IMG/VR virus record: IMGVR_UViG_3300050821_009523 | Reading direction: 5' to 3' (one strand) | Length of the DNA stretch: 64,000 nucleotides | Source: a virus | Taxonomy: Duplodnaviria; Heunggongvirae; Uroviricota; Caudoviricetes | Shown here: positions 246 to 53,302 of the stretch, one piece after another | Layout: each line of letters starts with the position of its first letter | How positions within the stretch are numbered: the stretch's first letter is position 1 | The notes under the pieces: model-generated | Database searches by the model: none | What the model was told of the DNA's origin: nothing | Seen by the model: only the letters and a program-made list of their open reading frames with translations | Position numbers and translations under genes: made by a program

Positions 246-932
246 CTAACGGCCATCGCGTTGCGGCGGCGCAGCGTCGAATTGCGCAAGTGCGTCTTGG
301 TATTCCTCGCGGCGCGCACATTCAGGATCGGCCGCACGCGCAGCGAGAAAAGCACGCCATTGCGCACGCCAGGGGTCTGTTGGCGATAGCCGGAGCGGGA
401 GGTGCGCGCCACTGACAAGCGCTTCGATACGCGGAGATAGAAAACGCAGGAGCCGCCTTCCGATTGGCGGTACTACTCCATAGCTCGCGTGATCCGCTAG
501 AATCTCGCGCGCGTCAACCGGAAACCTCTCTAGCACCGTGCCATCACGGCCGTATATCTTGACCAACTGCTGCGCTGGCGCCGTTTGCGGCGGGAGCATT
601 GCGAGCCAACGCTCGTGGGCTGCTATTTCTCTTAGCGTGGCTGCCGCGCAGGCGTTGGCGGCGTCGATGAGATCCTGCGCTTGCGTCTTCCCCCCTGTCC
701 ACAACAGCCGCTTGCTGGACACCGCGCCATACTGCTTAACCTTGGCGCGCAGCGCGCGCCCGCACCATTGGCATTGCTCGAAACCAAACTCTGCATGCGC
801 CGCCTCGACGGCCCACCGCGGCTCGTCGATTAGTTGCTGGAAGTCGCAGACGCAGTGTCCGCTGCGCTGTTCGTGCACGGCGTTTAGAGTGCGCTGAAAG
901 GCGCCTGCGGGCGAGTCTTGCAGTGCGATCAC
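246..932 (-). CDS. Hypothetical protein (228 aa)
   Basis: Long ORF co-oriented with neighbours. It shares an approximately 30-aa motif (LERFPVDAREIL...PP.G) with ORF 6607-7059. Confidence 0.45.
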   Translation of the reverse strand: MIALQDSPAGAFQRTLNAVHEQRSGHCVCDFQQLIDEPRWAVEAAHAEFGFEQCQWCGRALRAKVKQYGAVSSKRLLWTGGKTQAQDLIDAANACAAATLREIAAHERWLAMLPPQTAPAQQLVKIYGRDGTVLERFPVDAREILADHASYGVVPPIGRRLLRFLSPRIEALVSGAHLPLRLSPTDPWRAQWRAFLAARAADPECARREEYQDALAQFDAAPPQRDGR

Positions 933-1447
933 GGCTTAAAGTGCGCGCACGTCCAGTGCTCGAAAACGACAGTGCGGTCGTACTCGGACGACGGGCAGCT
1001 GCACGCGCCCCAATCTGCTCCGTGCGCTCCATCTAGGCGTATGTAGTACCGACAGCCACCGCACTGCAAGGTGTAGTCAGGGTGCTCGCCGTGGCGCGGC
1101 TTGCAGTTGACTAGGTTGCCGAATGTCTCCGGCCACGCAGGATCAGAATCGCTTGGTGGCACGTTGTCAGGCAGCCTTTCGCGGAGCTTTGCGATCCACC
1201 GCGCATGAACATCGTCAACAATGGCAACCGGGCCAAAAGGGAATGCGTGCTGCGCCAACGCCCACGCTAGGCGTATGCCGCCGCGCGGTATTGCTTGTAC
1301 CGCAGAGAACATTATGCCGCTATCGGCTACGATCTGCGCAAGTGCCGCGATGTCACTGTCCGAAAGCCAATCGCAATCGATTTTCCACCTGAGCGGCCTG
1401 CGCGAGGCGGACAGAAAATCGCCGTATTGGAATATATCGCCGCTCAT
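929..1447 (-). CDS. Hypothetical protein with C-terminal Cys/His-rich putative zinc-binding region
   Basis: 172-aa ORF. Its start overlaps the stop of the upstream gene by 4 nt (ATGA). C-terminal CxxC...CxC...C pattern. Confidence 0.45.
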   Translation of the reverse strand: MSGDIFQYGDFLSASRRPLRWKIDCDWLSDSDIAALAQIVADSGIMFSAVQAIPRGGIRLAWALAQHAFPFGPVAIVDDVHARWIAKLRERLPDNVPPSDSDPAWPETFGNLVNCKPRHGEHPDYTLQCGGCRYYIRLDGAHGADWGACSCPSSEYDRTVVFEHWTCAHFKP

Positions 1448-2001
1448 CGCTTGCTCTTTTCATACTTTGCGATGATCTCGTGCGCGGCAGCAAGCTCTGC
1501 TGCCGAAAGCGGGCGCTGCGGTGGCATTGGCGGCAGATCTGGTGCCTCAGGTTTGCCAGCCGCGATCCAGCCCTGCATAAAGGCGCCGAGATCTCCTGCC
1601 AGCACGCCATGCACGTCCTCTGTTTCTATGCCGGTGCGATGGTCCTTGGCGCGCTTGTACGGATCAAGCGTGTAGGTGCGGATGCCAGCCCTGTCGAGGG
1701 CCGCACGAATGTGCTGCGGCACAACGATCTCCACTTCCACAAACGACGTGTGCCGGCGCCGCTGCGGATCGTATGGGCTGATACGGCAGAGACTGTGGAC
1801 GCCCACCTCGCCTGTCAGCAGCTCGTGTGCTGTCTCGTCGCAGATCATCACAAACCAGGAGCCGTCTTCCTTAAAAATGCCCACCGGGCGCCCCCGTTTG
1901 GCGCCCCATCGTTCGTAGGCGGACGCCAGCATATATGCAAAGTCCTCCGTCTCTTTGCCGCCTGCTCCGGGTGTTACGGAAATGGTGATCTCTTCTTGCA
2001 T
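1444..2001 (-). CDS. Truncated class-I peptide chain release factor 2 (RF2/PrfB)-like protein: codon-recognition superdomain only, no GGQ domain
   Basis: Block-wise similarity to RF2 recalled from memory. [27 protein letters not shown] matches RF2 [51 protein letters not shown] matches [24 protein letters not shown], with the SPF tripeptide as SPY. [38 protein letters not shown] matches RF2 C-terminal [37 protein letters not shown]. The roughly 100-aa GGQ domain is replaced by about 8 residues, and N-terminal domain 1 is absent. Confidence 0.7.
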   Translation of the reverse strand: [185 protein letters not shown]

Positions 2002-2069
2002 GTTTCAATCCTCAGCAAGCATTTAACTTACGGCCAGCGGTTGACAAAGGGTTATTGGCATGCATTCGA

Positions 2070-3263
2070 TCACTGGTCTCCCGCCGGCCGCAGTTTTCTC
2101 CATTCTTGCCAGAGGTGCTTGAGCAGCATTTTCTCGGCATACCGTTTCGCGCGGTTGTGGCAGTGGCCTTGCGAACGGTAGGCGCTTTCCTTGCCCTTGG
2201 GGATCTCTAGCGCTGGCGCCACGATTAGCCCAGCGGCTTCCGCTTGCTGTACCCCGTACGCCTTGCGCGCAAGGTAGATCTCGCGGTATGGCCCCTGCGC
2301 CTTGATCATCGCGTCGCCGATTACCCACAGCACCGAGCGGCGGCGTGGCACGTAGCCTGTCGCTACGCCAGCGACGAGCCGTTGCCGGCCGCCGCCGATG
2401 GGATCAAGGCCAACGCCCATGCGGGTCCAGAGCTTTGCCGGATTGGCGTAGCGGTTTAGATCGCCGGCCTCCGCAATGATTTGCCCGAGGCCGAGTGCGC
2501 CGAAGCCCTTTATGTCACGCGCCCACGCGGCCCAGATTGGCAACTGCTCGGCTAACTTGCGCAGTTCCTTTTCTGGTGCCAGCCGCTCCTGTGCCAGCAT
2601 GTCGCGGGCGCGCAACAGTGGGGATAGGTGCCGGAGCGCAAGTTGTGCCTCGGCGATAGTCAACTCGCGCGTGTCGTTCACGATTGCGTTGTAAAGCTCG
2701 TTGGCGCGTGCCTTGTTTGTCTTTTTCGGATCGCCCACGAATGCGCGGCAGATCGCATGCACTTGCAGCGTCAGTTTGTTCGCCGCCTTAATGAAATCGT
2801 CACGGCGCCTGTGCGCCTCGATGATCTGTCCGATCAGGAGGGAAATTGCGGAGGGCGGATCGGCACACGCGGCCTGGGCACCAGCGGGCAATTGGCCTTT
2901 CCGCCCTCCGCGTACGGCTTGCTCGCTCGGCATGTCTGATATGGGTGCCAAAGGTGCCTTGGCCTTGCGAGGTGGGTTAGGGGCCGCGCTCGGCATGCCC
3001 TTAGTGGGCGCCATATCTAAGTTGGCCTTGCGTGGCTTGGAAACTCGCGGGTGCGGGGCGTTGGCATTCATTGCCCGGATATCATGAGCTTGCTGGCCTC
3101 CGCCCTGCGCCCGCGTTATTTTAGGTGCCGCGCCGGTTGACATGGCACCAATGGCTGTCAATTGAGGTATGGTCTTTCGGCGCGGCGAAGCATTAGGCGA
3201 CGCGGTTGGCAAGTGCGCGTCGGTTGCCGTGCGTTCCGTGGCCTCCCGCGCCGCCCTATTCAT
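2070..3263 (-). pseudogene. IS110-family transposase-like ORF with only the C-terminal Transposase_20-like region and a low-complexity Pro/Ala/Lys-rich N-terminus (fragment or co-opted domain)
   Basis: KGFGALGLGQIIAEAGDLNRYANPAKLWTRMGVGLDPIGGG resembles the IS110 C-terminal motif (GIGPITAA..AEIGD..RF.SAKQLAAYAGL.P). No DEDD N-terminal domain (no IGIDV.K-type start). The first ~150 aa is compositionally non-protein-like. Confidence 0.45.
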
Positions 3264-4091: not shown

Positions 4092-4303
4092 CCCTCCCTA
4101 TCTGCCGCAAGAGTGTAGCACAGCGGCGCTGCTACTTGCCGCGCCAAAATGACACCCCCAACATATAGGGCAATACCACTATGCCAACCCCTACGGCCGG
4201 AAGCCCGTAGGCCGCTGGCACCCCACCCCGGCGAGCAGCCTGGATAGGCCAGCACCGATGACGCCGCAGGCGGAAGCCTAAAGCGCTGAAAGGACACAAG
4301 ATA
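4092..4303. promoter_or_regulatory. Divergent intergenic regulatory region between the XRE regulator (-) and the head module (+), containing two short hairpins
   Basis: 212 bp noncoding. Inverted repeats gtagca-N9-tgctac and cctacgg-ccggaagc-ccgtagg. Reduced GC. Confidence 0.4.
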
Positions 4304-5077
4304 ATGCCTTGGAAAGTGGACGCAGAGGGAAAAGTAGCATCAGCCGACGGCAAGCCGGTCTTCGTGCACGCGGACGGCAAAGAGACGGGCTTTGACGGCG
4401 ATCAGGCGCTGGCCAAGATCAGCTCCCTGCAAGCCGAAAGCAAGATACACCGCGAGGCGAAGGAGGCTGCCGAGCTGGCGCTGGCACCCTACAAAGCGAT
4501 CGGCGATCCAGCCGAGGTGACGAGCCTTGTCGAGAAGGCCAAGAAGGTTGAGGCCAAGAAGCTGATCGACGCGGGCGATGTGGACAAGTACAACGCCGAG
4601 CGCGACAGGGGCTGGCAAGAGAAGGTGGACGCCGAGACGAAGCGCGCTACGGCGCTTGAGACGGCCCTGTTCGAGGAGAAGGTCGGCGCCAAGTTCGGCA
4701 CCAGCAAGTTTGTAAAAGACAAGCTCATCGTTGCGCCCCTCTCGGCGCGCCAGTTGTTTGGCAGCAACTTCAAGCTCGAAAACGGCGAGGCAATCGGTTA
4801 CCTCAACGGCACGAAGATCACCAGCAGAGAAAAGTTCGGCGAGCCGGCAGGCTTTGACGAGGCACTCGAAATCATCGTCCAGGCGCACCCCGAAAAGGAC
4901 AATCTGATGCGCAGCGCGGCCGGCAACGGCAGCGGCGCGCCGCCTTCGCCGCCGCCAGACCGCACAGCCACCAAGCAGCCAGACATGAGCAAGTTCAAGC
5001 CCGAGGAGCGTCTCACGGCGTTCTTCGCCGACAAGATGAAAGACCAACTGCCGCCGCCTGGACCAGGGGCGCGATAG
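4304..5077 (+). CDS. Putative head scaffolding protein (257 aa, Lys/Glu/Ala-rich, coiled-coil-like)
   Basis: Immediately upstream of the capsid-like gene. Highly charged helical composition. RBS aagga upstream of ATG 4304. Confidence 0.5.
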   Translation: MPWKVDAEGKVASADGKPVFVHADGKETGFDGDQALAKISSLQAESKIHREAKEAAELALAPYKAIGDPAEVTSLVEKAKKVEAKKLIDAGDVDKYNAERDRGWQEKVDAETKRATALETALFEEKVGAKFGTSKFVKDKLIVAPLSARQLFGSNFKLENGEAIGYLNGTKITSREKFGEPAGFDEALEIIVQAHPEKDNLMRSAAGNGSGAPPSPPPDRTATKQPDMSKFKPEERLTAFFADKMKDQLPPPGPGAR

Positions 5078-5125
5078 TCAACAGGCCGGCAGCAATCACG
5101 CTCTCCGGCGCGGAGGAAAATGTAA

Positions 5126-6055
5126 ATGGCTCTGACACTCATCGAGGCGTCCAAGCTGAATAGCGGCGACGTGCTCAAGAGCACTGTCATCGAGGCATTC
5201 GCACGGGAGAGCGACATCCTCAAGGTGCTGCCCTTTGAAGACATCCAGGGCGGCGGCGTTACGTACAACCGGGAGAGCACGCTGCCAGGCATTGCGTTCC
5301 GCGGCGTCAACGAGTCTTTTACGCCCAGCACCGGCGTCGTGAACCCCCTGACAGACGCACTGTCAATCATCGGCGGCGAAGTGGACGTGGACCGCTTCAT
5401 CATCAGGACGCGCGGCGTGGCGGTGCGCGCCAACCACGTCATGATGAAGGTGAAGGCGCTAGCCGCGCAGTTCACCACCAGCTTCATCAAAGGTGACAGC
5501 ACCGTCGATCAGCGGCAGTTCGACGGGTTGCAGGTGCGGTTGACCGGCAACCAGCTGATCAGCGCGGGCAGCGCGGCTGGTGGCGCTGCGCTTTCGCTCT
5601 CGGCCGTTGACCAAGCGATCGACCAGTGCTACAGCCCGACGCACATCATCCTGTCCAAGGCGCTGCGGCGCCGCTTCCAGCAGGCTGCACGCAACGTGAA
5701 CGTTGGCGGTTATATCACGTGGGAGCCGGACGAGTTTGGTCAGAAGGTGATCAACTACCAGGGGCTGCCGCTGCTCGTGGCGTACAGCGACAACGGGGGC
5801 GACGAGGTGCTGCCTTTCACCGAGGCGGCTGCCTCTGGTGCGGCAACCGCAACCTCTCTCTACGTTGTCAGCCTCGGCCCCGAGCGCCTCACTGGCATCC
5901 AGAACGGCACCATCGACGTGCGTGACCTCGGCGAGTTGCAGGCGAATGCCGTCACGTTCCGTACGCGCGTGGAATGGTACACCGGCGTTGCGTTCTACCA
6001 CCCGCGCGCCGCGGTGCGCGTCAACCAGATCGGCAACCTGGCCCTCGTGGCCTAA
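5126..6055 (+). CDS. Putative major capsid protein (309 aa)
   Basis: Position after the scaffold gene. Size and composition typical of HK97-fold capsid proteins. Strong RBS GGAGGaaaatgtaaATG. The assignment is positional and compositional; not verified by search. Confidence 0.55.
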   Translation: MALTLIEASKLNSGDVLKSTVIEAFARESDILKVLPFEDIQGGGVTYNRESTLPGIAFRGVNESFTPSTGVVNPLTDALSIIGGEVDVDRFIIRTRGVAVRANHVMMKVKALAAQFTTSFIKGDSTVDQRQFDGLQVRLTGNQLISAGSAAGGAALSLSAVDQAIDQCYSPTHIILSKALRRRFQQAARNVNVGGYITWEPDEFGQKVINYQGLPLLVAYSDNGGDEVLPFTEAAASGAATATSLYVVSLGPERLTGIQNGTIDVRDLGELQANAVTFRTRVEWYTGVAFYHPRAAVRVNQIGNLALVA

Positions 6056-6078
6056 ACAGGAGGCAACAGAAAAGGGCT

Positions 6079-6564
6079 ATGAGCCGGAACCGCACCTTTA
6101 CCTACGACTCTGGGCTGCTGCTCAGCGATGGCCTGACGGCACAGACGGCGAGCGGTAACGCGCTGGTCGGCGGCGCATCGCAGATCCTCAACCTTGGCGG
6201 CGGCCCGCCCAGCACCCTCGGCGGCCCGACCGAATACGGCATGTTCGAGGCGTATCTCGTCGTGGACATCACGGCGATCGAGATCAACACCTTGTCGCTC
6301 TACAAGCTCGGCTGGCAGTTGTCCGACAGCTCGACATTCGCCAGCGGCGTGGTGGAGAAGGCTACCTTCCTCGTCGGCAATACCACCGCACTGGACGCAG
6401 GCGCCAGCACCGGCGTGGGGCGCTATGTCTTCATGGTGGACAACAGCTATCCCGAGGGCACGCTTTACCAGTATGCCCGCATCTACCTGACGGCGAGCGG
6501 CACCATCACGACCGGCATCGCGTACCGTGCCTTCCTGGCACCGCTGATGGGTGCTGGCGGGTAA
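6079..6564 (+). CDS. Hypothetical head-associated protein (161 aa), possible decoration or minor capsid protein
   Basis: ATG at 6079 with AGGAGG at 6057-6062, 24 nt after the capsid stop. Gly/Thr/Ser-rich beta-like composition. Confidence 0.45.
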   Translation: MSRNRTFTYDSGLLLSDGLTAQTASGNALVGGASQILNLGGGPPSTLGGPTEYGMFEAYLVVDITAIEINTLSLYKLGWQLSDSSTFASGVVEKATFLVGNTTALDAGASTGVGRYVFMVDNSYPEGTLYQYARIYLTASGTITTGIAYRAFLAPLMGAGG

Positions 6565-6606
6565 ACCGCAGCAGGCCGAAACCAAAACGGGGGGAGGGGG
6601 TAACGC

Positions 6607-7059
6607 ATGCTGCCTAAGGTTACGCTGTATCACAAGGAAACCGGCGAGGCGATCGAGCGCTTTGGTGTGGATGCGCGCGAGATCCTGTCGTCCGGAGAGT
6701 GGGGGTTTGAGCCGCCGCCTGGCGTGGTGCCCGCGGCGGCCGCCGTGCAGCCTGTAAGCAGCGCTGGCGACGAGCCTGTCAAGTCACCGCTGCGCCTGAT
6801 GCCGGGGCTAACTGCTGCCGGCGAAAAGTTCCTCCACGGCTACGGCGTCGAGACGTTGGAAGAACTTGCCCAAACGCCGTTGCACAAGCTCCAAGTCCTC
6901 CCCGAGTGGAGAGCGCTGGAAATCGAGGACCAGGAGCCGATCGAGGAATACCTGCAAAACGCTGCCAGCAAGGCCGACACCAAGGCGGCCGTTGCGACCA
7001 GCAGCCGGCGCGGCGGCAAGGCAACGCCTGCGCCCGCTGCGCAGCAGCCGGCGGGTTAA
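6607..7059 (+). CDS. Hypothetical protein. The N-terminal motif is shared with ORF 246-932. Central segment is helix-hairpin-helix-like (LHGYGVETLEELAQTP)
   Basis: RBS GGGGGGAGGGGG upstream. IERFGVDAREIL...PPPGVV vs LERFPVDAREIL...PPIG. Confidence 0.45.
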   Translation: MLPKVTLYHKETGEAIERFGVDAREILSSGEWGFEPPPGVVPAAAAVQPVSSAGDEPVKSPLRLMPGLTAAGEKFLHGYGVETLEELAQTPLHKLQVLPEWRALEIEDQEPIEEYLQNAASKADTKAAVATSSRRGGKATPAPAAQQPAG

Positions 7060-7062
7060 CGC

Positions 7063-7581
7063 GTGGCGTTGACCCTAGAGGATGGGACCGGAATAGCGAA
7101 TGCCGACAGCTACGTCGCAAGCGCAACCATCGACACGTATGCAGCAGGCAGCCCCATCGGGCAGTGGTGGCTGGCGCTCGCCACGCAACTGCTCAAGGAC
7201 GACTGCGCACGCCAGGCGGCGCGCTACCTCGACAGCGTGTATGCCTCGCCCAACCGCCTCACGGGGCGCCGCCAATACCCCACGCAGGGGCTCGCGTGGC
7301 CACGCGCTTACTGTTTCGACCGTGACTCCGTACCGGTCAACCAAAACTACATCCCGCCGCCATGGGTCACGGCGCAGATCGAATTGGCTCTCCGCGCTGC
7401 GCAGTATGGCAGCACCCTCACGCCCGACCTCACGCGCATCGGCGGTTTCGCGCGGCGAGAGCAGGTTGGTTCCGTCTCGATCGAATTCATGCCGGGTGCG
7501 CCCGCGCAGCGCCAGTACCCATATGTCGAGCAAGTGCTGGCGCCGATCCTCCAGCCGGCAAGCGTACTGATGAGGGGATAA
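7063..7581 (+). CDS. Hypothetical protein; candidate head-tail connector or head completion protein
   Basis: GTG start directly after the upstream stop. Position between head and tail genes. Confidence 0.35.
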
Positions 7582-7586
7582 CGGAC

Positions 7587-7922
7587 ATGGCTGCCGTGAC
7601 ACCAGTTGTAGGGCCGCAGGTGTTGCAGGCCGCTGCGGTGGCGAATGGCAACGGCACGCAGTTGGATTGCGGCGGCTTGTCCAATATCGGCGTCCAAGTT
7701 ACGGGGATCACAACCGCAACGGTGAACTTCGAGGCCACAATCGACGGCAGCACTTGGTACCCGGTAAGCGCCCTTGCGCATGCCAGCGCCACACAAGTCA
7801 CCAGCACGGCAGCAGACGGCCTTTTCCGTGCCGACGTCCGCGGCTTTCTGTCGTTTCGCGCACGGATCAGCGGTTGGTCCGTTGGCGCCATCACGGTCAC
7901 GGCAGTAGGGGTCTACGAGTAG
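7587..7922 (+). CDS. Hypothetical small structural protein (111 aa)
   Basis: ATG 7587 with a GAGGGG RBS. Beta-rich composition. Located in the structural module. Confidence 0.4.
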
Positions 7923-7936
7923 GGCGCGGCGCCGCT

Positions 7937-9211
7937 ATGGCCATCAACACCACAACTCGGTTACTGACGCCTAGTCCTGTTGAGCCGTCGATCTCGATCA
8001 CGGATCTACAGCAGGCTTTCGGCGCGGCCGGGCTCCTCCCGCTCTCTGGCTATGGCGGCGGCGGTAGCAGCGCGGTGTGGTACACCGGCAGCGGTGTGCC
8101 GAGCAGCGGCACGGGCAACGTAGGCGATCTATATCTCAACACCGCAACCGGCAACGTGTATCAGAAAGGCGCCGGCGGTTGGGGTGCGCCGATCGAGAAC
8201 CTCGTCGGCCCTGCGGGCGCTACTGGCGCGGCTGGTGCAGCAGGCGCCACGGGGCCTGCTGGCCCTACCGGGCCAACGGGGGCTACCGGGGCCACGGGCG
8301 CAACTGGCGCCGCCGGGGCGACGGGGCCGCAAGGCCCGGCTGGCGCCACAGGTGCCACCGGCCCAACGGGGCCGCAAGGGCCTGCCGGGCTAGGCAATCC
8401 GCTCGGGGCAGGATCGCTCGGCGCGGCAGCGGCGCAGTTTGTTGCGGCTGGGGACGGTTTCTGGCAGCCCGCGGCGCATGTCGTCGGTGTCCAGGCCGAC
8501 TCATTCGATGTGGAGCGCTGGGAGGCGGCGGCCTCGGCGGTCAACTACCTGCGGGTGATCGCGCCGGCGACTGGCGGCAGCGTCCAACTGGCCGCGGCTG
8601 GCTCCGACGCGACGGTTGGCTTGACGCTCACGCCGAAGAACAACGGCAACGCGCTCTTCAACAGCACTGGCATCTTCCAGATCGGCGGTAGCGGCAACGC
8701 GAACCCCGGGCTCGCCACCTACATAGCGGGCTTCTACGGTAGCGGCCCAGGTAACGCTGTTCTCGGGCTCTTGCGGGCCGACGGCGCAGCCCTGTGCCAC
8801 CTGGCGATCGCCGGCCTTGAGTTGACCGACGCAGGAGGCCTCGGTGATACGAGCCACAACATTCTGGTCTTCGATATCGCGCGCCATCAGCAGGTCTACG
8901 TCAGCGACTGGACCGCCGGCTGGTACAGCGGTTCGCTGAACCCTGGAGCTGGCCACGCGCCGGACGTTTCGGTCGGCCGCGCGAGCGCAGGGGGCGTCCT
9001 CTCCGTCAATAGCAGCGCCAGCAACGATGGACTCGGCAAGATCGCCTTCGGCGGCGGCCGAGCCATCGGCCTCACCTCTACGGCCGCCGCCGCCACCACC
9101 ACTGAGTATCCAAACAGCGGCGATTGGGGTTTGCACAAGAACACCACGACCGGCGTAACGATGCTGGTCCGCAACGACGGCGGCACGATCAAGTCCGCCG
9201 CGCTGGCATAG
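7937..9211 (+). CDS. Collagen-like repeat (Gly-X-Y) fibre protein (425 aa)
   Basis: About 20 consecutive G-X-Y triplets ([34 protein letters not shown]...GPQGPAGLG). The C-terminal globular region is Gly/Ser/Asn-rich. Confidence 0.7.
8207..8396 (+). repeat. Collagen-like Gly-X-Y triplet tandem repeat inside the fibre gene
   Basis: Periodic ggc-NNN-NNN nucleotide pattern encoding GPA/GAT/GPT triplets. Confidence 0.7.
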
Positions 9212-9220
9212 GGAGACTCG

Positions 9221-9475
9221 ATGATCGTCAAGAATCAAGACGGAAGCGCCACTATCACCGACAAGGATGGAAACGTCGTCCGCTACGAGATCGGACTGGA
9301 TCCGAACGGTTCCGACCGCATGCAGCTGCTCTCGACCGGGAGCACGGGCAATCCTTCCCCGATTTTCGAGGGCGAAAACAGCGCCGGGCGCGCCAGCGGG
9401 CGATTCATCGATTGCGGTGGCTCGGCCGATGTGCTGACCGACCCCGAGACCGGCTTCGTTCGCTGGGCCGGTTAA
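9221..9475 (+). CDS. Hypothetical protein (84 aa)
   Basis: RBS AGGGAGAC, 4 nt spacer, ATG 9221. Co-oriented in the structural module. Confidence 0.45.
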   Translation: MIVKNQDGSATITDKDGNVVRYEIGLDPNGSDRMQLLSTGSTGNPSPIFEGENSAGRASGRFIDCGGSADVLTDPETGFVRWAG

Positions 9476-9478
9476 CCG

Positions 9479-9670
9479 ATGGCCTTTCTCGTCCAAGATG
9501 GCCCGATGGCCCTGATTTACGAGGCGCTCGCGACGCACCCCGTAGTGCGTGCTTGGCAGATCGTGAACAACCTGCAACCGGTTGCAATCCAGGCTGCACC
9601 AGCCGCGGCTGCGCCGCCGCCCGAGCAGCCCGAGCAGGCGCCACCAAAGCCCAAGCAGCACCGCAAGTAA
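9479..9670 (+). CDS. Hypothetical small protein with Pro/Ala/Gln-rich C-terminus (63 aa)
   Basis: ATG 4 nt after the upstream stop. Confidence 0.35.
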   Translation: MAFLVQDGPMALIYEALATHPVVRAWQIVNNLQPVAIQAAPAAAAPPPEQPEQAPPKPKQHRK

Positions 9671-9680
9671 GGACAGCCTC

Positions 9681-10346
9681 TTGACAATCACGCCGACAGC
9701 ACTAGATACCGACCTGCGCGCAATGGCGCAGTCGCTGATCGGTGCGCTTGGCCGCACCCTGCTGCTGCGTCGGCCAGTGCGGCAAGAGATCAAGGCGGGG
9801 GCCAACATCGGCACCGTTGCGGTATCGCCACTGTCCTCGGCAGCGCTGTCTGTGAACGGTAGCGCGCTTGCTGGCGCAACCGCCATCGGCCTGCGGCGGC
9901 CTATGGGCTTGTCGGGGCTGCTGGTGGCCAACGACTCGCTGCTGATCGGCGGCGCAAGCTACCGCGTCGTGGGCGGCCCATACCAACCCGACGGCGCGGG
10001 CGCGCTTGCTGCCGTTACATTCACGCCAGCGCTTGCCACACCTGCCAGCGACGGCGATCCGGTGGCTGTAACGTTTTCCGGCACGGAGTACACCATCAAG
10101 GGGGCGGTTTCGGGGTTCTCGCTGTTTCTCATCAACAGCAGCGATAGCCAGATCGAGTCCGGTGATTTTAAGGTCACGATTGCGCAAGCAGACCTTGATG
10201 CGTTTGGCATTCAGCCGACCACCAAGGATGAGCTTTACAACGGGCCGGACACAACCTACCCGCGGTGCGCGATCTTGAATGTCACGTCCATTGCGAGCGG
10301 CGAACAAGATGCAGCGGTTGAGCTACACGCGAGGGCTGCAAAGTAA
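9681..10346 (+). CDS. Hypothetical structural protein. TTG start at 9681 after an AAGGACAG RBS; the alternative ATG start is 9723
   Basis: Open frame begins right after the upstream stop at 9670. Beta-rich composition. Confidence 0.4.
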   Translation: MTITPTALDTDLRAMAQSLIGALGRTLLLRRPVRQEIKAGANIGTVAVSPLSSAALSVNGSALAGATAIGLRRPMGLSGLLVANDSLLIGGASYRVVGGPYQPDGAGALAAVTFTPALATPASDGDPVAVTFSGTEYTIKGAVSGFSLFLINSSDSQIESGDFKVTIAQADLDAFGIQPTTKDELYNGPDTTYPRCAILNVTSIASGEQDAAVELHARAAK

Positions 10347-10846
10347 TGGCCGCGTCCGCCACGTTGGCGCAGTTTAATGCGCAAATCGACAAGTGGATCG
10401 GCGTCACAATACCGGCCAAGGCCGTTGCCTTCCAGAAAAAGATCCACTTTATGGTGCTGGGCGCGGCTTTCCAGGACGCGCAAGGCAACATCCGCATGGT
10501 GTCGGGGCTGCTGCAAATGACACCCGTCGATACGGGCCGTGCGCGCGGCAACTGGCAGTCGTCGGCCGGTACGCCGGCGAGCGGCACGATCGAGGGTTTT
10601 CCGAAGAGCGCGCGCAAGCCGGGCGATACCGCCGCGACGGCTGATTTCATCGGTGCACCGCCCACACCCGCCGAGCAAGAGGCGGCCGCTGCGGGCCTCG
10701 GCGGCTTGGTCTTTGGGCAAACCAGCTACATCACGAACAATCTGCCGTACATCGCGATCCTGAATGACGGTGGCGTCAACCGTGTGGCGCATCACATGGT
10801 GGAGCGTGCCGTGGCAAACGTGCGTAGCGTGCTGGCGGCCGGATAG
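10346..10846 (+). CDS. Putative tail completion / head-tail joining protein (HK97 gp10-like)
   Basis: C-terminal NNLPYIAILNDGG...HHMVERAV resembles the HK97 gp10 family signature. Start overlaps the upstream stop (TAATG). Confidence 0.45.
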   Translation: MAASATLAQFNAQIDKWIGVTIPAKAVAFQKKIHFMVLGAAFQDAQGNIRMVSGLLQMTPVDTGRARGNWQSSAGTPASGTIEGFPKSARKPGDTAATADFIGAPPTPAEQEAAAAGLGGLVFGQTSYITNNLPYIAILNDGGVNRVAHHMVERAVANVRSVLAAG

Positions 10847-10859
10847 ACACATGGGCGTC

Positions 10860-11141
10860 AAGATCAACGCATGGGGCGGCACCGACAAGCGGGGAATCTA
10901 TGAGTTCCACTGCCCTGGCTGCGGCCTTGCGCACGCTGTCAGCACCCGCGGGGAGCATGCGTGGACGTGGAATGGCTCGGACGAGAGCCCCACGTTTACG
11001 CCGTCGATACTGTCATGTGGCAGCGACAGCGAGCGGCGTTGCCACAGCTTTGTCAAGGACGGCCGCATTCAGTTCCTCACGGACTGTTATCACAACCTTG
11101 CGGGCCAGACGGTCGATCTGCCCGATTGGAAAGATGTGTAA
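10860..11141 (+). CDS. Small Cys/His-rich putative zinc-ribbon protein (93 aa)
   Basis: FHCPGCGLAH...C...C..C pattern. ATG at 10860 downstream of the gp10-like stop. Confidence 0.4.
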   Translation, partial: KINAWGGTDKRGIYEFHCPGCGLAHAVSTRGEHAWTWNGSDESPTFTPSILSCGSDSERRCHSFVKDGRIQFLTDCYHNLAGQTVDLPDWKDV

Positions 11142-11612
11142 GTGGCAACCAATGTCCATGCGAATGCTGTGCAACTCCTCCGCGCGCGCCACGAGGCGAA
11201 ATTCGACGGCAGCGGTGGCCTACGGCCCGGCTTTGCGGTCAAGTACCCGAACTCACCCGATTTTGTGCAACCGGACAACGCGCCGTGGTCCGACTGGCGC
11301 CCCATGTGGGCGCACGCTACCCAACTCACAGCCAACGCTGCGGGCGGCGAGCGCCGGATCGGTACGCTCATCGAGGACATCAACGTACCGCGACTCAACG
11401 GCGAATTGTTGCCGGCGCAGATTGGTGATGACATCTGCGTCGTCTGGCGCCCCGACACGCCGGACTTGCCATATGTCATCCCGTCGGGCGCTGGCTACAG
11501 GTTCCGTTTCTTCCCGACAACCGTTACGGAAGTTGGGATTGCGCGAGACGACAATGCGTGGTTTCGCTGCACGGCAGTTACACCGCTCTGGTACGACTAC
11601 GTCCCGAGCTAG
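11142..11612 (+). CDS. Hypothetical protein (156 aa)
   Basis: GTG start adjacent to the upstream TAA. Structural module. Confidence 0.45.
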   Translation: MATNVHANAVQLLRARHEAKFDGSGGLRPGFAVKYPNSPDFVQPDNAPWSDWRPMWAHATQLTANAAGGERRIGTLIEDINVPRLNGELLPAQIGDDICVVWRPDTPDLPYVIPSGAGYRFRFFPTTVTEVGIARDDNAWFRCTAVTPLWYDYVPS

Positions 11613-11630: not shown

Positions 11631-12815
11631 ATGAGTGCGAGCAGCTCCGTACGGCATACGCGCCTAGCGACGCGCGAAACGACCTACGGCACGCCCATCA
11701 GCAGTGCGGGTAGGGTTATCCGCCGCACTGGCGGAAACTTCGCCGTCACGACAACGGCTGGCGCCAGCAAAGAGGTGCGGACTGATTTGCAGTCCACGCA
11801 GACGTACCGCACCAACCAGGCTAGCACCTACACGATCGAGGACGAGTGGGTATACGGCGTCCACAACTACGAGCTTGAGGACCACTTCCTCAATACCTGG
11901 AGCCCGCTGCTGAGCAGTAGCGTAACGACCAGCAGCGCCACAGCGATCAGCGCGGCCAGCAGCGACAACAGTTTCAACCGCGCCACCGGCGACTTTACGG
12001 TCGATGGCGTCGTGGTGGGGGCGCCAATCAAGACTGGCGGCTTCACCAACGCAGGGAATAACGGCGTCTTTCGGGTGGTGTCCGTAACGGCACTCAAGAT
12101 CATTGTGGCGGGCACGCTCATTACGGAGGCAGCCGGCACCAATAGCCTCGTGGTGGCGCGTTACCTGCGGCAAGGCACCACGGACATGTTTGTGACGTTC
12201 GAGGAGTATTACAGCGACCTCGCGACGCCGCAGTACATCGTCTATCCCGGCATGGTGAACGACATGTGGGAGTGGAAGTTCTCTCACCCCGGCGAGATCA
12301 CCACCAAGTTTGACTACAAGGGCCGGCCGCCGATTCCAGCTGCCACCACAGGCAGCAACAACGGCACCATCACGGCGTACGCGGCTAACCCCGTGATGAA
12401 CAGCAGCGACAGCTGGAAGGTGGCGATCGAGGGCGGCACGCCCATTACCGTGTGGGTGAAGGACTTCACGATCACTTGCAAGAACAACAAGCGCGAGATC
12501 GGCAGCGCCGGCACGCTGGGCGCCAAGCTGCAAGGCAAGTCCACCTTCGACGTGGCGGGCCAGGTAGTGCTGTACAACGACGCCAACGGCCTGCTGATCG
12601 CCAACAAGCACTTTGCCTTTACTGATTCCGCCTGGGAGTTTCAGTGCATCGATGCGCTGGGCAACACCCAGCACTTCTATATCCCGAAGCTCAACTACAC
12701 CGCTGGCGCGCCGCTTTCCGGGCCAAAGGACCAGGACGTCATGATTACGTTGCCGTTCACGGCGAAGCAGGATCCTGTGACCGGCACGATGATTCAGATC
12801 TCGGCGTTTTCGTGA
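11631..12815 (+). CDS. Putative major tail (tube) protein (394 aa)
   Basis: Position directly upstream of the G/GT chaperone pair and the tape measure gene. Ser/Thr-rich beta composition. Strong RBS GAGAGGAGAAAAGG. Confidence 0.5.
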   Translation: MSASSSVRHTRLATRETTYGTPISSAGRVIRRTGGNFAVTTTAGASKEVRTDLQSTQTYRTNQASTYTIEDEWVYGVHNYELEDHFLNTWSPLLSSSVTTSSATAISAASSDNSFNRATGDFTVDGVVVGAPIKTGGFTNAGNNGVFRVVSVTALKIIVAGTLITEAAGTNSLVVARYLRQGTTDMFVTFEEYYSDLATPQYIVYPGMVNDMWEWKFSHPGEITTKFDYKGRPPIPAATTGSNNGTITAYAANPVMNSSDSWKVAIEGGTPITVWVKDFTITCKNNKREIGSAGTLGAKLQGKSTFDVAGQVVLYNDANGLLIANKHFAFTDSAWEFQCIDALGNTQHFYIPKLNYTAGAPLSGPKDQDVMITLPFTAKQDPVTGTMIQISAFS

Positions 12816-13430: not shown

Positions 13431-13843
13431 TGGAGTGCCTCGCTTACGAGCTGAGGCACAGCGGCAGCCCAGAGATCAGCCAGTTCGAGCGTGACATTGC
13501 GGAGCGCGGCAACGAGGAAGCGCGGGCCAGGATTGAAAAGCGTGAGCGCAACAAACCAGAGCTCTGGGCTGCCAACCGCTTGGCGTGGCGCGTCTTCTGG
13601 CACACGACGCGCGGGCGCAGTAACGGCATGGGCATGGGGCTCATTGCGCCAAGCGAGGTGGCGACTTACCTGCACACTTGGCTGCCGGAGCTGCACCTCG
13701 ACGAGGAGGAGCGCGAGGATTTGCTGCTTGCCGTCGAGCGCCTCGACGAGCGGTACTACAACCACCACAACAAGAAAAAGGACACACGGCCGCCCATTGT
13801 TGGCCCCGATGGGCGGCCCGTAGTGCCGAGCGGCGATGGCTGA
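13430..13843 (+). CDS. Tail assembly chaperone T-like segment (137 aa); likely expressed mainly as a -1 frameshift fusion with 12963-13430
   Basis: -1 frame relative to G. Start overlaps the G stop (TGATG). End overlaps the tape measure start. Confidence 0.5.
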   Translation: MECLAYELRHSGSPEISQFERDIAERGNEEARARIEKRERNKPELWAANRLAWRVFWHTTRGRSNGMGMGLIAPSEVATYLHTWLPELHLDEEEREDLLLAVERLDERYYNHHNKKKDTRPPIVGPDGRPVVPSGDG

Positions 13844-16800
13844 TAGCGAGAGCTTGCTCATCAGCGTGGACCCCGGAGGAGTTGTATCCGGGGTCCGTGT
13901 CGCGGCTGCATCACTCGATCAGCTCAAGGCCAGTGCTGCATCTGCCCTAACGGGCGTTTCGGGCGTCACACAAGCGGCAGGCGCCTTTACGGGCGCGGCC
14001 AGCGGCATGGCGCAGGCCGCCGGGACCGTCACAGTCGCACTCCGTACGCAGTCCGGGGCCATAAGCCAGATAGCGGCCCAGCAAGCCGTCATGGCGCAAG
14101 CCACGCAGGCGCTCGCCACAAAGTATGCCGGCGCGACGGGCGACATGGCGGCTGCCACAACCGAATGGAAAGCAAAAGTGCAGGAGGTCTATACCTACCT
14201 GCTGACCGGCAAGGAGGCGTTCGGCAGTTGGGCCACTGCCGGCGTCACGTCGTACCGCGAGGTCATCGACGCGGTTGCGGAAGTGGAGACATCGCTTGGG
14301 CTGCTGATGCTGACGCAGGGCACCTACACCACAACTGCCGCCACCGCCACGAGCGCGACGATTACCGAAGCAGCCGCGATGGATGCCCTTGCGGCTGCGA
14401 TCGTCCAGGTACGGGAGGCGCAGGCCGCGACGGCCGGCACAGGCGCCGTAGCGGGCGCCACGCAGGCCACGACGGGCGTCGTAAACGTGACGGCGATCGA
14501 AGCAGAGGCAGCGGCGCGCGGTGCTGACACAACGGCGCTCAATGCCGAGGCCGCTGCCGCAGCACGCCTCGATGCCGTACTGACAGATCTCGCCGGCAAA
14601 ACGACAGCCGCCAGCTTGCGCGTGATGGTAGCGGGCGATGCCCCTGCGCTCGCGTTGGTGAATGCGGAGCTAGAACAGCGCGACGCGCTGATCGCTGCCG
14701 GCGCCGCGATGTACAGCAAGGAAGGCGAATTTATCATCCTGAACGAGGCTGGCGCTGCCGCTGTGCGTACGCAGGTCGTGGCGCTACAGGAACAGCAGGC
14801 TGCGCTTGCGGCTGTAAACGCCGAACAGGCCGAAACCGCCGGTGCCTTGGGCAACATCGAGGCGATCGGTGCCCGAATGGTGATCCGCATGGTGCTAATG
14901 GGCATCGTGCTGGCGCTCGGTGCAGTCGTCACGAAGAGCGTCGAGGCGGCCACAGCCTTCGAAAACAGCATGACGCGGTTGCAGACGCTCGTGGGTGTCT
15001 CTAAAACTGAAGCCGACAGCTATCGCGGCGCGATGGCTGATATCGCCGTCTCAACAGGCCAGACGGCAGACGAGAACGCCAAGGCGATGTTTGCCATTAC
15101 GTCCGAGGGCATGCGCGGGCAGAGTGCGCTCGACCTGCTTAAGGCGAGCGCCGAAGGCGCGGCCGTTGGGTTGGGCGATCAGACGGTCGTGGCGCGGACA
15201 GCCGCTGCCGCGATTGAGGCGTATGGTGCGCAAAACCTGTCCGCAAAGGAAGCGATCGGCGGCCTGATCCTTGCGGCGCGCGAGGGTAACACTACAGTCG
15301 AGTCTATTGCGTCAGCCTTCGGCCGCGTTTTGGGTGTTGCGGCGGCCGTCCATGTCGGCTTCGATGACGTCATCTCCTCGATCGCATCCTTCACACGGAT
15401 GGGGGTGAGCGCGCAAGAAGCCGCCACCGGCCTGCGTAGCACTATCCAAGCACTCGAACTACGGAACACGAAGGGCGCCAACGATGCGCTCAAGACAATC
15501 GGCATGTCGGTGGCATCGCTCCGCGAGGAGATCCAAAGCAAGGGCCTAGCAGCATCGCTCGTGGATATCGTGGCTAAATTCAACGCCGCAGGTAGTGGCG
15601 CCGAGGCGATGGCCAAAATCATCCCCAACATTCGCGGCTTGGCAGAGGTGCTTTCCAACGCCAACAGCCAAGCGACAGCGTATGTTGGCATCTCTGAGCG
15701 CGTACATGCAGAGATGGGCACAGCGCTCGACGACGCTAACAAGATAGCGGAACAAAACCCGGCCAATGTCTTCCGGCAGATGACGGCAGCGGTAGGCGTG
15801 GCAGCAATCGCGATCGCAAGCGGCCTGCTCCCGCAACTTGTAGGGGTGGCGAATGCGATCAAGGAGGCCGCCACCTCGGGCGACTTACAAAAGTGGGCAT
15901 CGGTAGCGGCTACCGCGTTCGGCGGCGTGGTGGAAATCGGCAAGGTGCTGGCCGCGATACTGGCTAACCTGCCGTTTCTGATCACAGCTTATGCCGGCTC
16001 GCTCGCCATAGCCGCCGCCGCAGAAACCAGCGTTGCCGATGCTGGGGCCTTTGTTGCACTCCGGCTTGAGGCGATCGGCGCTGCCATCGCGGCCAACCCG
16101 GTCGGCGCTGCCGCGGCGGCATTTGTGTTGCTCGCGCTGGCCATGAACCGCGTGGCTGTCGAATCGATAGCCGATTCAAACGCCTTTTTGGACGAAACTG
16201 CCCGCATGGCTGCACAGGAGCCGGTGCTCGCTCGCCTACGCCAGGGGTATGACGTATTGACAAAGTCGATCCGTGACCAGGGTGATGCACTGCGCGAAAA
16301 CCGCGACAAGGGCACCGTGACGGCTGTGCCGGCCAGCACGCCAAGCGGTTCTGTTACGCCAGGTTTTGGTGCCCAAGCGTCCACTAGCGCTAACTCATTC
16401 CTGGGGCAGATGGATGCAATCAACAAGGCGTACCAAGTACAGGTGCAGGCGGCCGGGCAGGATAAGACGGCCGTTGCGGCTGCCGATGCTGAGCGGACAC
16501 ACGAGATCACAAATCTACAGGTGAGCACGCAGGCGTTTCTTGACCACGCCCGCGCTGTGCTAACCGACCGCGATGCTGCGCTCAAGGATCAGATCGCCAA
16601 CCGCGATCTCGTGGCGGAGCAACTACGCCAAGCGCAACAGCGCCCGACGGTTAGAATCGGGGGCGCCGACCCCATCACGGTACGTAACCCGGCGATTGAC
16701 CAGAATGCGGCCGCGCTACAAAACCTCAATAACCAGATTAAGACCAACACGACGCAGCTTGCGAACGACAAGGCGGGTCTCGATGCACAGCAGGCGGCGC

Positions 16801-35987: not shown

Positions 35988-36006
35988 GGTGTTGCTCCTT
36001 TTCCTG

Positions 36007-53280: not shown

Positions 53281-53302
53281 GACACCGGCACGGGAGGCCA
53301 AA

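What the first reader, a model, noticed from the sequence alone, without database searches (positions are those of the whole stretch)
1444..2001. Phage-encoded RF2-like protein that keeps the stop-codon decoding domain (SPY tripeptide) but has the entire GGQ peptidyl-tRNA hydrolysis domain and N-terminal domain 1 deleted
Three sequence blocks align convincingly with bacterial RF2.
- The PCRF region aligns (GAGG..DWA.ML.RMY.RWAE).
- The codon-recognition loop aligns ([18 protein letters not shown]), with SPF changed to SPY.
- The C-terminal helix aligns ([12 protein letters not shown].ET....VLDG.LD.F).
The roughly 100-aa segment carrying GGQ is replaced by about 8 residues. Such a protein could occupy stop codons in the ribosomal A site without releasing the peptide. 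That suggests a termination antagonist, a recoding or readthrough factor, a host-translation inhibitor, or a regulator. I am not aware of a described phage GGQ-less release-factor fragment. An organellar PrfB3-like precedent exists in plants.
Basis: partly seen in the sequence, partly recalled or inferred. Interest (0 to 1): 0.8.

Follow-up and report, generated by a model that had tools for sequence, protein, structure and literature searches.

The report
Phage release-factor-2 decoding module without catalytic domain
A phage gene encodes only the stop-codon-reading half of bacterial release factor 2, without the part that cuts the finished protein loose; it belongs to a previously undescribed family found in many uncultured phages, and it probably sits on stop codons and interferes with termination.

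Summary

The gene is not a one-off. A full-library profile search found at least 73 clusters (50% identity) of 121-207-aa proteins with the same two-domain architecture. All ten inspected contexts of 6 kb or more (nine of them at least 13 kb) are phage-like, from 36-64% GC contigs, and they share no conserved partner gene. The family keeps nearly all RF2 codon-reading residues, relaxes the third tripeptide residue and the switch loop, and gains no new conserved site.

The best mechanistic reading is inferred, not shown: a stop-codon-specific (UGA/UAA) A-site occupant that cannot release the peptide, that is, a termination antagonist or modulator. I found no description of it in the literature. 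It is not an RF2, PrfB3, PrfH or ArfB by their defining features.

The parts
1444..2001 (-). Complete gene for the 185-aa RF2 domain-2/domain-4-only protein ('mini-RF2'), stop codon included
   Evidence: ORF list and sequence. PCRF E 6.1e-17. RF2 in PDB E 2.1e-21. Positive coding score in an in-house codon model.
2009..2013 (-). Shine-Dalgarno-like GAGGA, 7 nt upstream of the ATG
   Evidence: Read from the sequence. Homologues in other loci also have GGAG/GAGG upstream.
1717..1995 (-). RF2 domain 2 (PCRF) part, aa 3-95
   Evidence: Pfam aa 3-90. PDB alignment aa 7-96 = RF2 125-220. Model pLDDT above 90 over most of this part.
1951..1968 (-). GAGGKE, the tip of the helix that in RF2 reads the first stop-codon base (G15 and E17 conserved)
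   Evidence: G15 in 60/65 and E17 in 57/65 (plus 7 D) family members. The role of the motif is taken from the RF2-ribosome literature, not tested here.
1771..1779 (-). Tripeptide 'anticodon' SPY (SPF in RF2), aa 75-77
   Evidence: Reverse complement of 1771-1779 is AGC CCA TAC. S in 62/65 and P in 63/65; the third residue is F 37, Y 10, H 9.
1741..1758 (-). RRHTSF, the second codon-reading element, aa 82-87
   Evidence: Reverse complement reads CGC CGG CAC ACG TCG TTT. Family counts of 65: R 62, R 64, H 55, T 61, S 57, F 60.
1687..1716 (-). About 10-residue junction (aa 96-105) that replaces the ~96-aa GGQ domain 3 and most of the switch loop
   Evidence: Gap between the two PDB-aligned stretches. 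This is the lowest-confidence part of the core model (pLDDT 73-83). Variable in length and sequence across the family.
1564..1686 (-). RF2 domain 4 part, aa 106-146 ([18 protein letters not shown]...VLAGDL)
   Evidence: PDB alignment aa 106-146 = RF2 317-357. R108, Y110, P114, Y115 and G136 are conserved in the family.
1447..1563 (-). Lineage-specific C-terminal tail (aa 147-185): a Pro-rich linker and a terminal helix, not part of RF2 and not conserved in the family
   Evidence: No RF2 alignment beyond aa 146. Predicted helix 167-184 at pLDDT ~78. Most family members end soon after domain 4.
929..1447 (-). Downstream 172-aa gene, translationally coupled (ATGA overlap); unknown function; not conserved next to other family members
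   Evidence: weak DUF3027, E 3e-4; no similarity to the neighbour in L001.
4160..4187 (-). Only sigma-70-like promoter match upstream of the leftward HTH...mini-RF2 gene cluster (weak evidence)
   Evidence: 1 site found against 0.9 expected by chance. Given as a position only, not as evidence.

Best explanation
SHOWN:
- The gene encodes an intact, folded copy of the RF2 stop-codon-decoding superdomain (domains 2 and 4) and nothing else. Domain 1 (which by textbook knowledge contacts the L11 stalk and RF3) and domain 3 (the GGQ peptidyl-tRNA hydrolase) are absent.
- It is one member of a widespread, purifying-selected family carried by unrelated tailed phages.
- The family keeps almost every residue that RF2 uses to read UGA/UAA in the 30S decoding centre, and it has acquired no new conserved site.

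INFERRED:
- The protein binds the ribosomal A site when a UAA or UGA codon (RF2-type specificity) is there. It cannot hydrolyse peptidyl-tRNA, so it competes with host RF2 (and with RF1 at UAA) and delays or blocks termination.
- The peptide stays on the P-site tRNA, so RF3 would not evict it. Occupancy would be set by its own off-rate.
- The likely biological use is as an early or accessory host-manipulation factor: slowing host termination, stalling ribosomes at stop codons, starving the UGA-dependent prfB autoregulatory site, or tuning termination-reinitiation and readthrough at particular phage stops. Which of these applies is unknown.
For: Architecture:
- Two in-frame RF2 stretches with no GGQ domain.

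Fold:
- AlphaFold model pLDDT 89.7, pTM 0.81.
- Foldseek top 50 hits are all RF2/RF1.

Family:
- A profile search of 1.84 billion representatives returned, among the best 150 hits, ~73 short single-stretch proteins. They have 0 residues in domain 1 and 0-12 of 87 in domain 3.

Conservation in 65 members (28% mean column identity):
- G15, E17, E65, G67, H69, R70, R73, S75, P76, D78, R82, R83, H84, T85, F87, R108, Y110, P114, Y115 and G136 are conserved.
- Of these, G15, E65, G67, H69, R70, R73, S75, P76, D78, R83, T85, F87, R108, Y110, P114, Y115 and G136 occupy columns that are at least 85% conserved in both the minis and 53 full-length RF2s.
- No column is conserved only in the short family.
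- Relaxed columns are the ones tied to the missing parts: the switch-loop G/Q and the domain 2-3 hinge Pro.

Context:
- The mini-RF2 contigs inspected, ten contexts of 6 kb or more, are all phage-like, and no gene recurs next to the mini-RF2.
- No GGQ-domain ORF occurs in the window or the eight loci (L001-L008) tested.

Literature:
- RF3 dissociates only catalytically active RF1 (PMC3988563 abstract).
Against: - No binding or activity data exist. Affinity of superdomain 2/4 alone for the ribosome is unknown, and the switch loop that stabilises RF2 on the decoding centre is mostly lost.
- The phages themselves depend on RF2-readable stops: window TGA 38, TAA 16, TAG 17 of 71 genes; other loci are mostly TAA/TGA; the mini-RF2 genes themselves end in TGA or TAA. 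A strong global block would therefore hurt the phage. This argues for a weak, timed or site-specific effect.
- No conserved recoding site or suppressor tRNA accompanies the gene.
- The window protein deviates at two otherwise conserved positions: S70 where 61/65 have R, and A28 where 61/65 have M.
Confidence: 0.45

Rival explanations
1. The protein interferes with release-factor-dependent ribosome rescue rather than with stop codons. It would dock on ArfA/BrfA-type rescue factors, or on the rescue-factor-loaded A site, through superdomain 2/4 without releasing the peptide. That would block non-stop rescue, for example as a counter-defence against systems that need translation of stop-less mRNAs, such as DRT2/Neo.
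For: - ArfA binds RF2 by adding a beta strand to superdomain II/IV, which is exactly the part retained here (PMC8012679).
- DRT2 immunity makes a stop-less neo mRNA, and ArfA-mediated rescue was proposed to release Neo (PMC11100668; cited in PMC12646239).
- The genes lie among early or accessory genes, where anti-defence genes are common.
Against: - ArfA- and BrfA-dependent release needs GGQ but not SPF or the stop-codon-reading function (PMC8012679). Yet the codon-reading residues are the best conserved part of the family.
- By background knowledge, ArfA and BrfA are restricted to some proteobacteria and Bacillus. The family occurs on contigs from 36 to 64% GC, including ones with actinophage-like (WhiB) and alphaproteobacterial-phage-like (GcrA) genes.
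- No PADLOC hit.
Confidence: 0.1
2. An off-ribosome RNA-binding regulator, like plant PrfB3. The RF2 scaffold would be reused to bind and stabilise or repress particular phage or host transcripts.
For: PrfB3 shows that an RF2 homologue without GGQ can act as an mRNA 3'-end protector (PMC5897788).
Against: - PrfB3 lost SPF as well. Here the whole decoding constellation is under strong constraint, although it only makes sense inside the 16S decoding centre.
- There is no family-specific conserved surface.
- There is no conserved neighbouring gene or RNA target.
Confidence: 0.1
3. A decaying remnant (pseudogene) of a phage-borne full-length prfB, or an assembly artefact, with no function.
For: - Full-length RF1/RF2 genes do occur in some phages.
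- The window protein has two unusual substitutions, S70 and A28.
Against: - The same clean two-domain architecture occurs in at least 73 divergent clusters, with intact ORFs, start codons and ribosome-binding sites.
- Motif conservation is strong despite 28% mean column identity.
- The fold prediction is confident.
- The identical protein is present in two independent assemblies.
Confidence: 0.03
4. One half of a split release factor. It would read the stop codon and recruit a separately encoded GGQ protein (ArfB/ICT1-like, or the host's) to perform hydrolysis in trans.
For: Stand-alone GGQ proteins exist in bacteria (ArfB; PMC3950681 and PMC8012679, listed).
Against: - No GGQ-domain sequence in any frame of the window or the eight related loci.
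- No recurrent neighbour.
- The switch loop and the domain 2-3 hinge that would position a GGQ domain are relaxed.
Confidence: 0.04

Closest known systems
Bacterial release factor 2 (PrfB, TIGR00020)
   Different: There is no domain 1, no GGQ domain 3 and almost no switch loop. It scores 105 bits against the 370-bit family cut-off. It cannot catalyse peptide release. It is phage-encoded.
Catalytically dead RF mutants (GGQ to GAQ/GGA and similar) used to trap termination complexes
   Same: They read the stop codon but do not hydrolyse. They stay on the ribosome and act as competitors of wild-type RFs. RF3 does not remove inactive RF1 (PMC3988563).
   Different: They are laboratory point mutants that keep all four domains, including the domain-3 contact with the peptidyl-transferase centre. 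This is a natural, domain-deleted protein whose affinity is unknown.
Plant chloroplast PrfB3
   Same: An RF2-derived protein that has lost release activity and gained a regulatory role.
   Different: PrfB3 lost both SPF and GGQ motifs and binds the petB 3' UTR (PMC5897788). The phage protein keeps the SPF-type decoding loop and lacks whole domains.
PrfH (RF-H), partner of RtcB2
   Different: PrfH keeps the GGQ domain and has a remodelled decoding domain that recognises damaged ribosomes. The phage protein is the opposite: the decoding domain is kept and GGQ is lost. No RtcB appears among the Pfam-annotated neighbours.
Full-length RF1/RF2 genes of stop-codon-recoded phages (Lak, Agate, Jade; phrog_19918)
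   Same: Phage-borne class-I release-factor homologues.
   Different: Those are complete, presumably active factors that go with suppressor tRNAs and recoded genes (bioRxiv 10.1101/2021.08.26.457843). This phage uses the standard code, has no tRNA genes in the window, and its factor lacks the catalytic domain.
ArfB/YaeJ/ICT1
   Same: Truncated members of the class-I RF superfamily.
   Different: They are the mirror image: a GGQ domain plus a tail, with no codon-reading domain.

Membership tests
Release factor 2 (PrfB; TIGR00020 / Pfam PCRF + RF-1) | PCRF (domain 2) with an RF2-type decoding loop | tested here: met
   PCRF E 6.1e-17. prfB model 105 bits against 33-39 bits for the RF1 models. 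SPY and RRHTSF are present.
Release factor 2 (PrfB; TIGR00020 / Pfam PCRF + RF-1) | RF-1 domain (PF00472) with the GGQ motif | tested here: not met
   No PF00472 hit at E<=1. No GGQ in the protein. No domain-3 similarity in any frame of the window.
Release factor 2 (PrfB; TIGR00020 / Pfam PCRF + RF-1) | N-terminal domain 1 and a whole-protein score above the curated cut-off | tested here: not met
   The protein starts at RF2 position ~119-125. It scores 105.5 bits against a 370-bit cut-off.
Release factor 2 (PrfB; TIGR00020 / Pfam PCRF + RF-1) | Stop-codon-dependent peptidyl-tRNA hydrolysis | not testable with these tools
   Needs an in vitro release assay. Hydrolysis is not expected without the GGQ domain.
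PrfB3 (chloroplast RF2-like RNA stabiliser) | Loss of both SPF and GGQ motifs in an otherwise full-length RF2-like protein | tested here: not met
   The SPF-type loop is retained as SPY. Domains 1 and 3 are absent rather than mutated. The PrfB3 description is from PMC5897788.
PrfH (RF-H) | GGQ domain present, domain 1 absent, remodelled decoding domain, RtcB2 partner | tested here: not met
ArfB/ICT1 | Stand-alone GGQ domain with a basic C-terminal tail | tested here: not met
   No GGQ domain.
Unnamed phage 'mini-RF2' family (RF2 domains 2+4 only) | Single continuous match to a domain-2+4 profile, 120-210 aa, no residues in domains 1 and 3, conserved decoding residues | tested here: met
   The window protein is the top hit of the profile. 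About 73 further representatives share the architecture.
Unnamed phage 'mini-RF2' family (RF2 domains 2+4 only) | Encoded on phage genomes | tested here: met
   - The window has a scaffold protein, major capsid protein, portal and tail tube.
- All the other contigs examined carry phage replication, recombination or structural genes.
- One member is in IMG/VR.
- A 164-aa 'PrfB' from an uncultured Caudovirales phage is in BFVD.
Known anti-phage defence proteins (PADLOC-DB) | Match to any defence-system model | tested here: not met
   No hit for the protein, five relatives and four neighbours.

The most novel reading that the evidence does not exclude
Tailed phages of many hosts carry a dedicated 'headless release factor'. 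This would be a stand-alone stop-codon reader that occupies UGA/UAA codons in the A site without releasing the chain. It would give the virus a codon-specific handle on host translation termination: competition with RF2 and RF1, stalling at stops, collapse of prfB autoregulation, or enhanced readthrough or reinitiation at chosen sites. That would be a new class of viral translation-termination antagonist, and a natural tool for trapping termination complexes.
Probability: 0.4. Interest if true: 0.85.

Novelty: new variant of a known kind. Interest (0 to 1): 0.74.

Why it matters
Phages are known to tamper with initiation and elongation, and in recoded phages with the meaning of stop codons through full-length release factors and suppressor tRNAs. 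A natural, widespread protein made only of the stop-codon-reading module would be the first viral factor aimed specifically at the termination step by competitive occupancy of the A site.

It would matter in four ways:
- It gives a testable answer to whether superdomain 2/4 alone can recognise stop codons on the ribosome.
- It offers a natural reagent for trapping pre-hydrolysis termination complexes.
- It could reveal a new layer of host shut-off or gene-expression timing.
- One family member (P0074) is ~65% identical to E. coli RF2 in the retained domains, so the idea can be tested at once on E. coli ribosomes.

Tried and rejected
1. Hidden GGQ, frameshift or split gene. tblastn of RF2 domains 3 and 1 against the window and 8 loci found nothing. 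Rejected.
2. First structure prediction with only 3 sequences. pLDDT was 57, so it was unusable. It was replaced by a 65-sequence run.
3. Broad family profile (A2) in the search for homologous proteins. The result was swamped by full-length RF2, with only one new short member.
4. IMG/VR pattern scans:
   - With A2: no usable conserved stretch.
   - With A1 and with the window protein: no relatives.
   - With P0074: one viral contig.
5. tblastn of three family members against 50,697 deposited phage genomes. Only full-length prfB was found (two pieces ~700 nt apart), much of it on short unannotated records that look like host DNA. No cultured phage with a mini-RF2 was found.
6. Conserved neighbour. 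None was found. The gene downstream of P0003 is unrelated to the one in the window, and Pfam lists of the loci share nothing.
7. Recoding hypothesis:
   - No tRNA genes in the window.
   - No suppressor tRNAs in the related loci.
   - TGA is the commonest stop.
   - Same-frame neighbouring ORFs occur at about the rate chance gives.
8. A GC3-based gene caller failed on this genome. It was replaced by a codon-model caller.
9. Monophyly of the short family. A neighbour-joining tree on 140 columns gives 5 state changes and a largest pure clade of 36/65. This is too noisy to decide between one and several origins. P0074's 65% identity to enterobacterial RF2 hints at more than one origin.
10. The afdb50 fold library was unavailable. 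The Science version of the DRT2 paper is not held, so the preprint was used.
11. Nine literature searches found no description of such a protein.
Full report
1. THE OBSERVATION

Window 1444-2001 on the minus strand is an uninterrupted 185-codon ORF. It starts with ATG, has GAGGA 7 nt upstream, and its TGA stop overlaps the ATG of the next gene.

Sequence matches:
- Pfam finds the C-terminal half of the PCRF domain (E 6.1e-17, aa 3-90 = profile positions 100-194 of 194). There is no RF-1/GGQ domain even at E<=1.
- NCBIfam ranks prfB (RF2) far above the RF1 models. The score is 105.5 bits against a 370-bit cut-off, because most of the model is unmatched.
- phmmer against all PDB sequences gives two stretches on RF2 (6szs_z, E 2.1e-21). 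Residues 7-96 match RF2 125-220, and residues 106-146 match RF2 317-357.
- The two stretches are in one frame, 33 nt apart. About 10 residues therefore stand where RF2 has the ~96-residue domain 3.

The gene upstream ends 68 nt before the start codon and is unrelated to RF2, so there is no room for a domain 1. tblastn with RF2 domains 3 and 1 against the whole window and eight related loci finds nothing. A frameshifted or split gene is excluded. The identical protein is present on two independent ~97 kb assemblies, one JGI and one ENA, so it is not an assembly artefact.

2. THE FOLD

A first prediction with three sequences was poor (pLDDT 57). With a 65-member family alignment the model is confident (pLDDT 89.7, pTM 0.81).
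- RF1 and mitochondrial mtRF1 follow, with Z between 17 and 20.
- The top 50 Foldseek hits in the PDB are all class-I release factors.

The protein is thus an intact RF2 superdomain 2/4. It also carries a lineage-specific tail (aa 147-185), made of a Pro-rich linker and a helix, that other family members lack.

3. THE SURROUNDINGS

The window is a tailed-phage genome.
- A scaffold-like protein (phrog_784/206) and a major capsid protein (phrog_212, E 7e-78) start at 4304. Tail genes follow, including a 2,591-codon ORF.
- A portal, a tail tube and HNH endonucleases lie on the same contig.
- The capsid protein is 47-53% identical to those of Microcystis, Mesorhizobium, Rhodobacter, Ruegeria and Caulobacter phages.

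The mini-RF2 lies in a leftward gene cluster that diverges from the head module. In order, the cluster holds a small HTH protein, a 210-aa unknown, a 397-aa protein with only the C-terminal IS110-type domain, the mini-RF2, and two unknowns.

Other checks on the surroundings:
- Nothing matches a defence-system model.
- The window has no tRNA gene.
- A codon-model gene call gives 71 genes ending in TGA 38, TAG 17 and TAA 16.

The phage therefore uses the standard code and itself relies on RF2-readable stops.

4. IT IS A FAMILY

The word-indexed search found two other GGQ-less relatives: P0003 (177 aa, also SPY) and P0034 (148 aa, SPF).

A profile of the three was scored against all 1.84 billion cluster representatives and gave 4,900 hits. 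Among the 150 best, about 73 are 121-207-aa proteins matched in one continuous stretch. Aligned to a full-length RF2, they have 0 residues in domain 1 and 0-12 of 87 in domain 3.

Nearly all of these clusters are metagenomic singletons. Where named at all, they are labelled 'protein subunit release factor B' by an automatic pipeline.

I looked at every member I could place on a contig of 6 kb or more. All are phage-like:
- L001: Clp protease, RNA ligase and nine tRNA genes.
- L003: Prim-Pol/DnaB and endonuclease VII.
- L004: a GIY-YIG homing endonuclease.
- L005: a portal and a Cas4-type nuclease.
- L007: ERF and YqaJ recombination genes, with the mini-RF2 alone on its strand like a moron.
- L009: DnaB, primase, SSB and GcrA.
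- L010: ThyX.
- L011: WhiB and a transglycosylase.
- L012: an IMG/VR viral contig.

BFVD also holds a 164-aa 'PrfB' from an uncultured Caudovirales phage. GC content of the contigs runs from 36 to 64%. No neighbouring gene recurs (for example). No member was found in 50,697 deposited phage genomes; only full-length prfB turned up, much of it apparently host DNA.

5. WHAT SELECTION KEEPS AND WHAT IT LETS GO

The 65-member alignment has 28% mean column identity. The conserved positions are G15, E17 (57 E + 7 D), E65, G67, H69, R70, R73, S75, P76, D78, R82, R83, H84, T85, S86, F87, V90, R108, Y110, P114, Y115, V133 and G136.

These include the helix-tip G..E, the SP of the tripeptide and RRHTSF. 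By the published RF2-ribosome structures (background knowledge, not tested here), these elements read the three stop-codon bases in the decoding centre.

I compared the short family with 53 full-length RF2s:
- The positions conserved in both groups at 85% or more are G15, E65, G67, H69, R70, R73, S75, P76, D78, R83, T85, S86, F87, R108, Y110, P114, Y115, V133 and G136, plus L25, M28 and Y29.
- No column is conserved in the short family alone.
- The relaxed columns are the third tripeptide residue, the switch-loop G and Q, and the Pro at the domain 2-3 hinge. The third tripeptide residue is F in 94% of RF2s, against F 37, Y 10, H 9 of 65 in the short family.

The protein's function therefore rests on the ancestral decoding surface. 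The parts that served to swing domain 3 into the peptidyl-transferase centre are no longer needed.

SPY as such is unremarkable. It is the second commonest variant in the family, and it occurs in full-length factors too. The window protein has two unusual substitutions: S70 where 61/65 have R, and A28 where 61/65 have M.

A rough tree does not settle whether the deletion happened once or several times. One member, P0074, is ~65% identical to E. coli RF2 across domains 2 and 4, with domain 3 excised almost seamlessly. This hints at repeated origin and offers an easy experimental model.

6. THE MECHANISM

What is shown:
- A folded stop-codon-reading module without a catalytic domain.
- It is under purifying selection in many phages.
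- It has no partner.

What I infer:
- It binds the A site at UAA/UGA and cannot release the chain.
- It therefore competes with RF2, and with RF1 at UAA.
- Because the peptide stays on the P-site tRNA, RF3 should not evict it. RF3 removes only catalytically active RF1 (PMC3988563 abstract).

The main difficulty is that the phages carrying it also end most of their genes in TGA or TAA. A strong, constitutive block would be self-harming. The effect must be weak, timed, or directed at particular sites.

One curiosity fits this, although codon-usage bias in highly expressed genes explains it equally well. All nine called genes of the head module (4304-11612) avoid TGA.

I give this reading 0.45.

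7. THE RIVALS

- Interference with ArfA/BrfA-RF2 rescue (confidence 0.10).
  - For: the rescue factor docks on superdomain II/IV (PMC8012679), and DRT2 immunity is proposed to need such rescue to release Neo from a stop-less mRNA (PMC11100668).
  - Against: that pathway does not need SPF, which is conserved here, and the host range looks too broad.
- A PrfB3-like RNA binder off the ribosome (0.10). PrfB3 lost SPF as well (PMC5897788).
- A split release factor with a trans-acting GGQ protein (0.04). No such gene is found nearby.
- A pseudogene or artefact (0.03). This is refuted by the family-level conservation.

8. COMPARISON WITH WHAT IS KNOWN, AND NOVELTY

By its defining features the protein is not an RF2, because it lacks the GGQ domain and domain 1 and scores below the cut-off. 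It is also not a PrfB3, a PrfH or an ArfB.

It differs from the full-length RF1/RF2 genes of stop-codon-recoded phages, which come with suppressor tRNAs and recoded genes (bioRxiv 10.1101/2021.08.26.457843).

Functionally it most resembles laboratory GGQ-dead release factors.

Nine full-text searches found no description of a domain-3-less release factor in phages or bacteria. The library is incomplete, so this is absence of evidence. I rate it a new variant of a known kind: a new architecture, and probably a new function, within the class-I release-factor superfamily.

9. VERDICT

Interest is 0.74. A specialist would be surprised that phages of many hosts carry a 'headless' release factor, and the hypothesis can be tested immediately with standard termination assays.

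Noticed in passing
window 4304-11612 (+): All nine called genes of the head module (scaffold, major capsid protein and others) end in TAA or TAG and none in TGA, although TGA ends 38 of 71 genes overall. This could be ordinary avoidance of leaky UGA in highly expressed genes. It could also relate to an RF2-directed factor in the same phage.
   Followed up: partly
window 2070-3263 (-): The 397-aa protein directly upstream of the mini-RF2 matches only the C-terminal part of IS110-family transposases (phrog_4285 E 1e-20; Pfam Transposase_20 E 0.0085). It has a ~150-aa low-complexity N-terminus and no hit to the DEDD catalytic domain.
   Followed up: partly
window 929-1447 (-): A 172-aa gene is translationally coupled to the mini-RF2 through an ATGA overlap. 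Its only hit is a weak Cys-rich DUF3027-like C-terminus (E 3e-4). It is not conserved next to other family members.
   Followed up: partly
window 34971-36356 / 33489-34916 (-); 11142-11612 / 11631-12815 (+); 6607-7059 / 7063-7581 (+); 53267-54154 / 54173-54859 (+): Several neighbouring genes are in the same reading frame and separated by a single stop codon (TAA or TAG) with no further stop in the spacer. The number is about what chance gives, so I did not treat these as readthrough candidates.
   Followed up: partly
window 13836-21611 (+): A very long ORF of 2,591 codons sits in the tail module and is followed by a 1,103-codon ORF. It is probably a tape-measure or tail-fibre-type protein; I did not examine it.
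   Followed up: no
L002 19801-20558 (same contig, outside the window): A gene with a weak TROVE (Ro60-like) domain hit lies on the same phage contig.
   Followed up: no
L001 887-5451 and 20431-20503: The low-GC phage contig carrying the SPY homologue P0003 has nine tRNA genes (Leu x4, Ser x3, Val, Cys). It also has two Clp protease genes and an RNA ligase. None of the tRNAs is a suppressor.
   Followed up: partly
L007 8986-9384: In this ERF/YqaJ-type (temperate-looking) phage contig the mini-RF2 is the only gene on its strand, between two oppositely oriented modules. This is a moron-like position that might mean expression from a prophage.
   Followed up: no
phage-collection records OR848728.1, OR845826.1, OR851006.1, AGRM01000002.1 and others: Many deposited 'phage' records that match RF2 are short unannotated contigs, and one is a 691 kb Salmonella record. 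They carry full-length prfB nearly identical to host genes, so they look like host DNA filed as phage.
   Followed up: no
P0074 / L012 4026-4559: This family member is ~65% identical to E. coli RF2 over domains 2 and 4, including the switch-loop DIGWGNQIRSY. Domain 3 is removed almost seamlessly, and it also has SPY. It looks like a recent derivative of a gammaproteobacterial prfB.
   Followed up: partly
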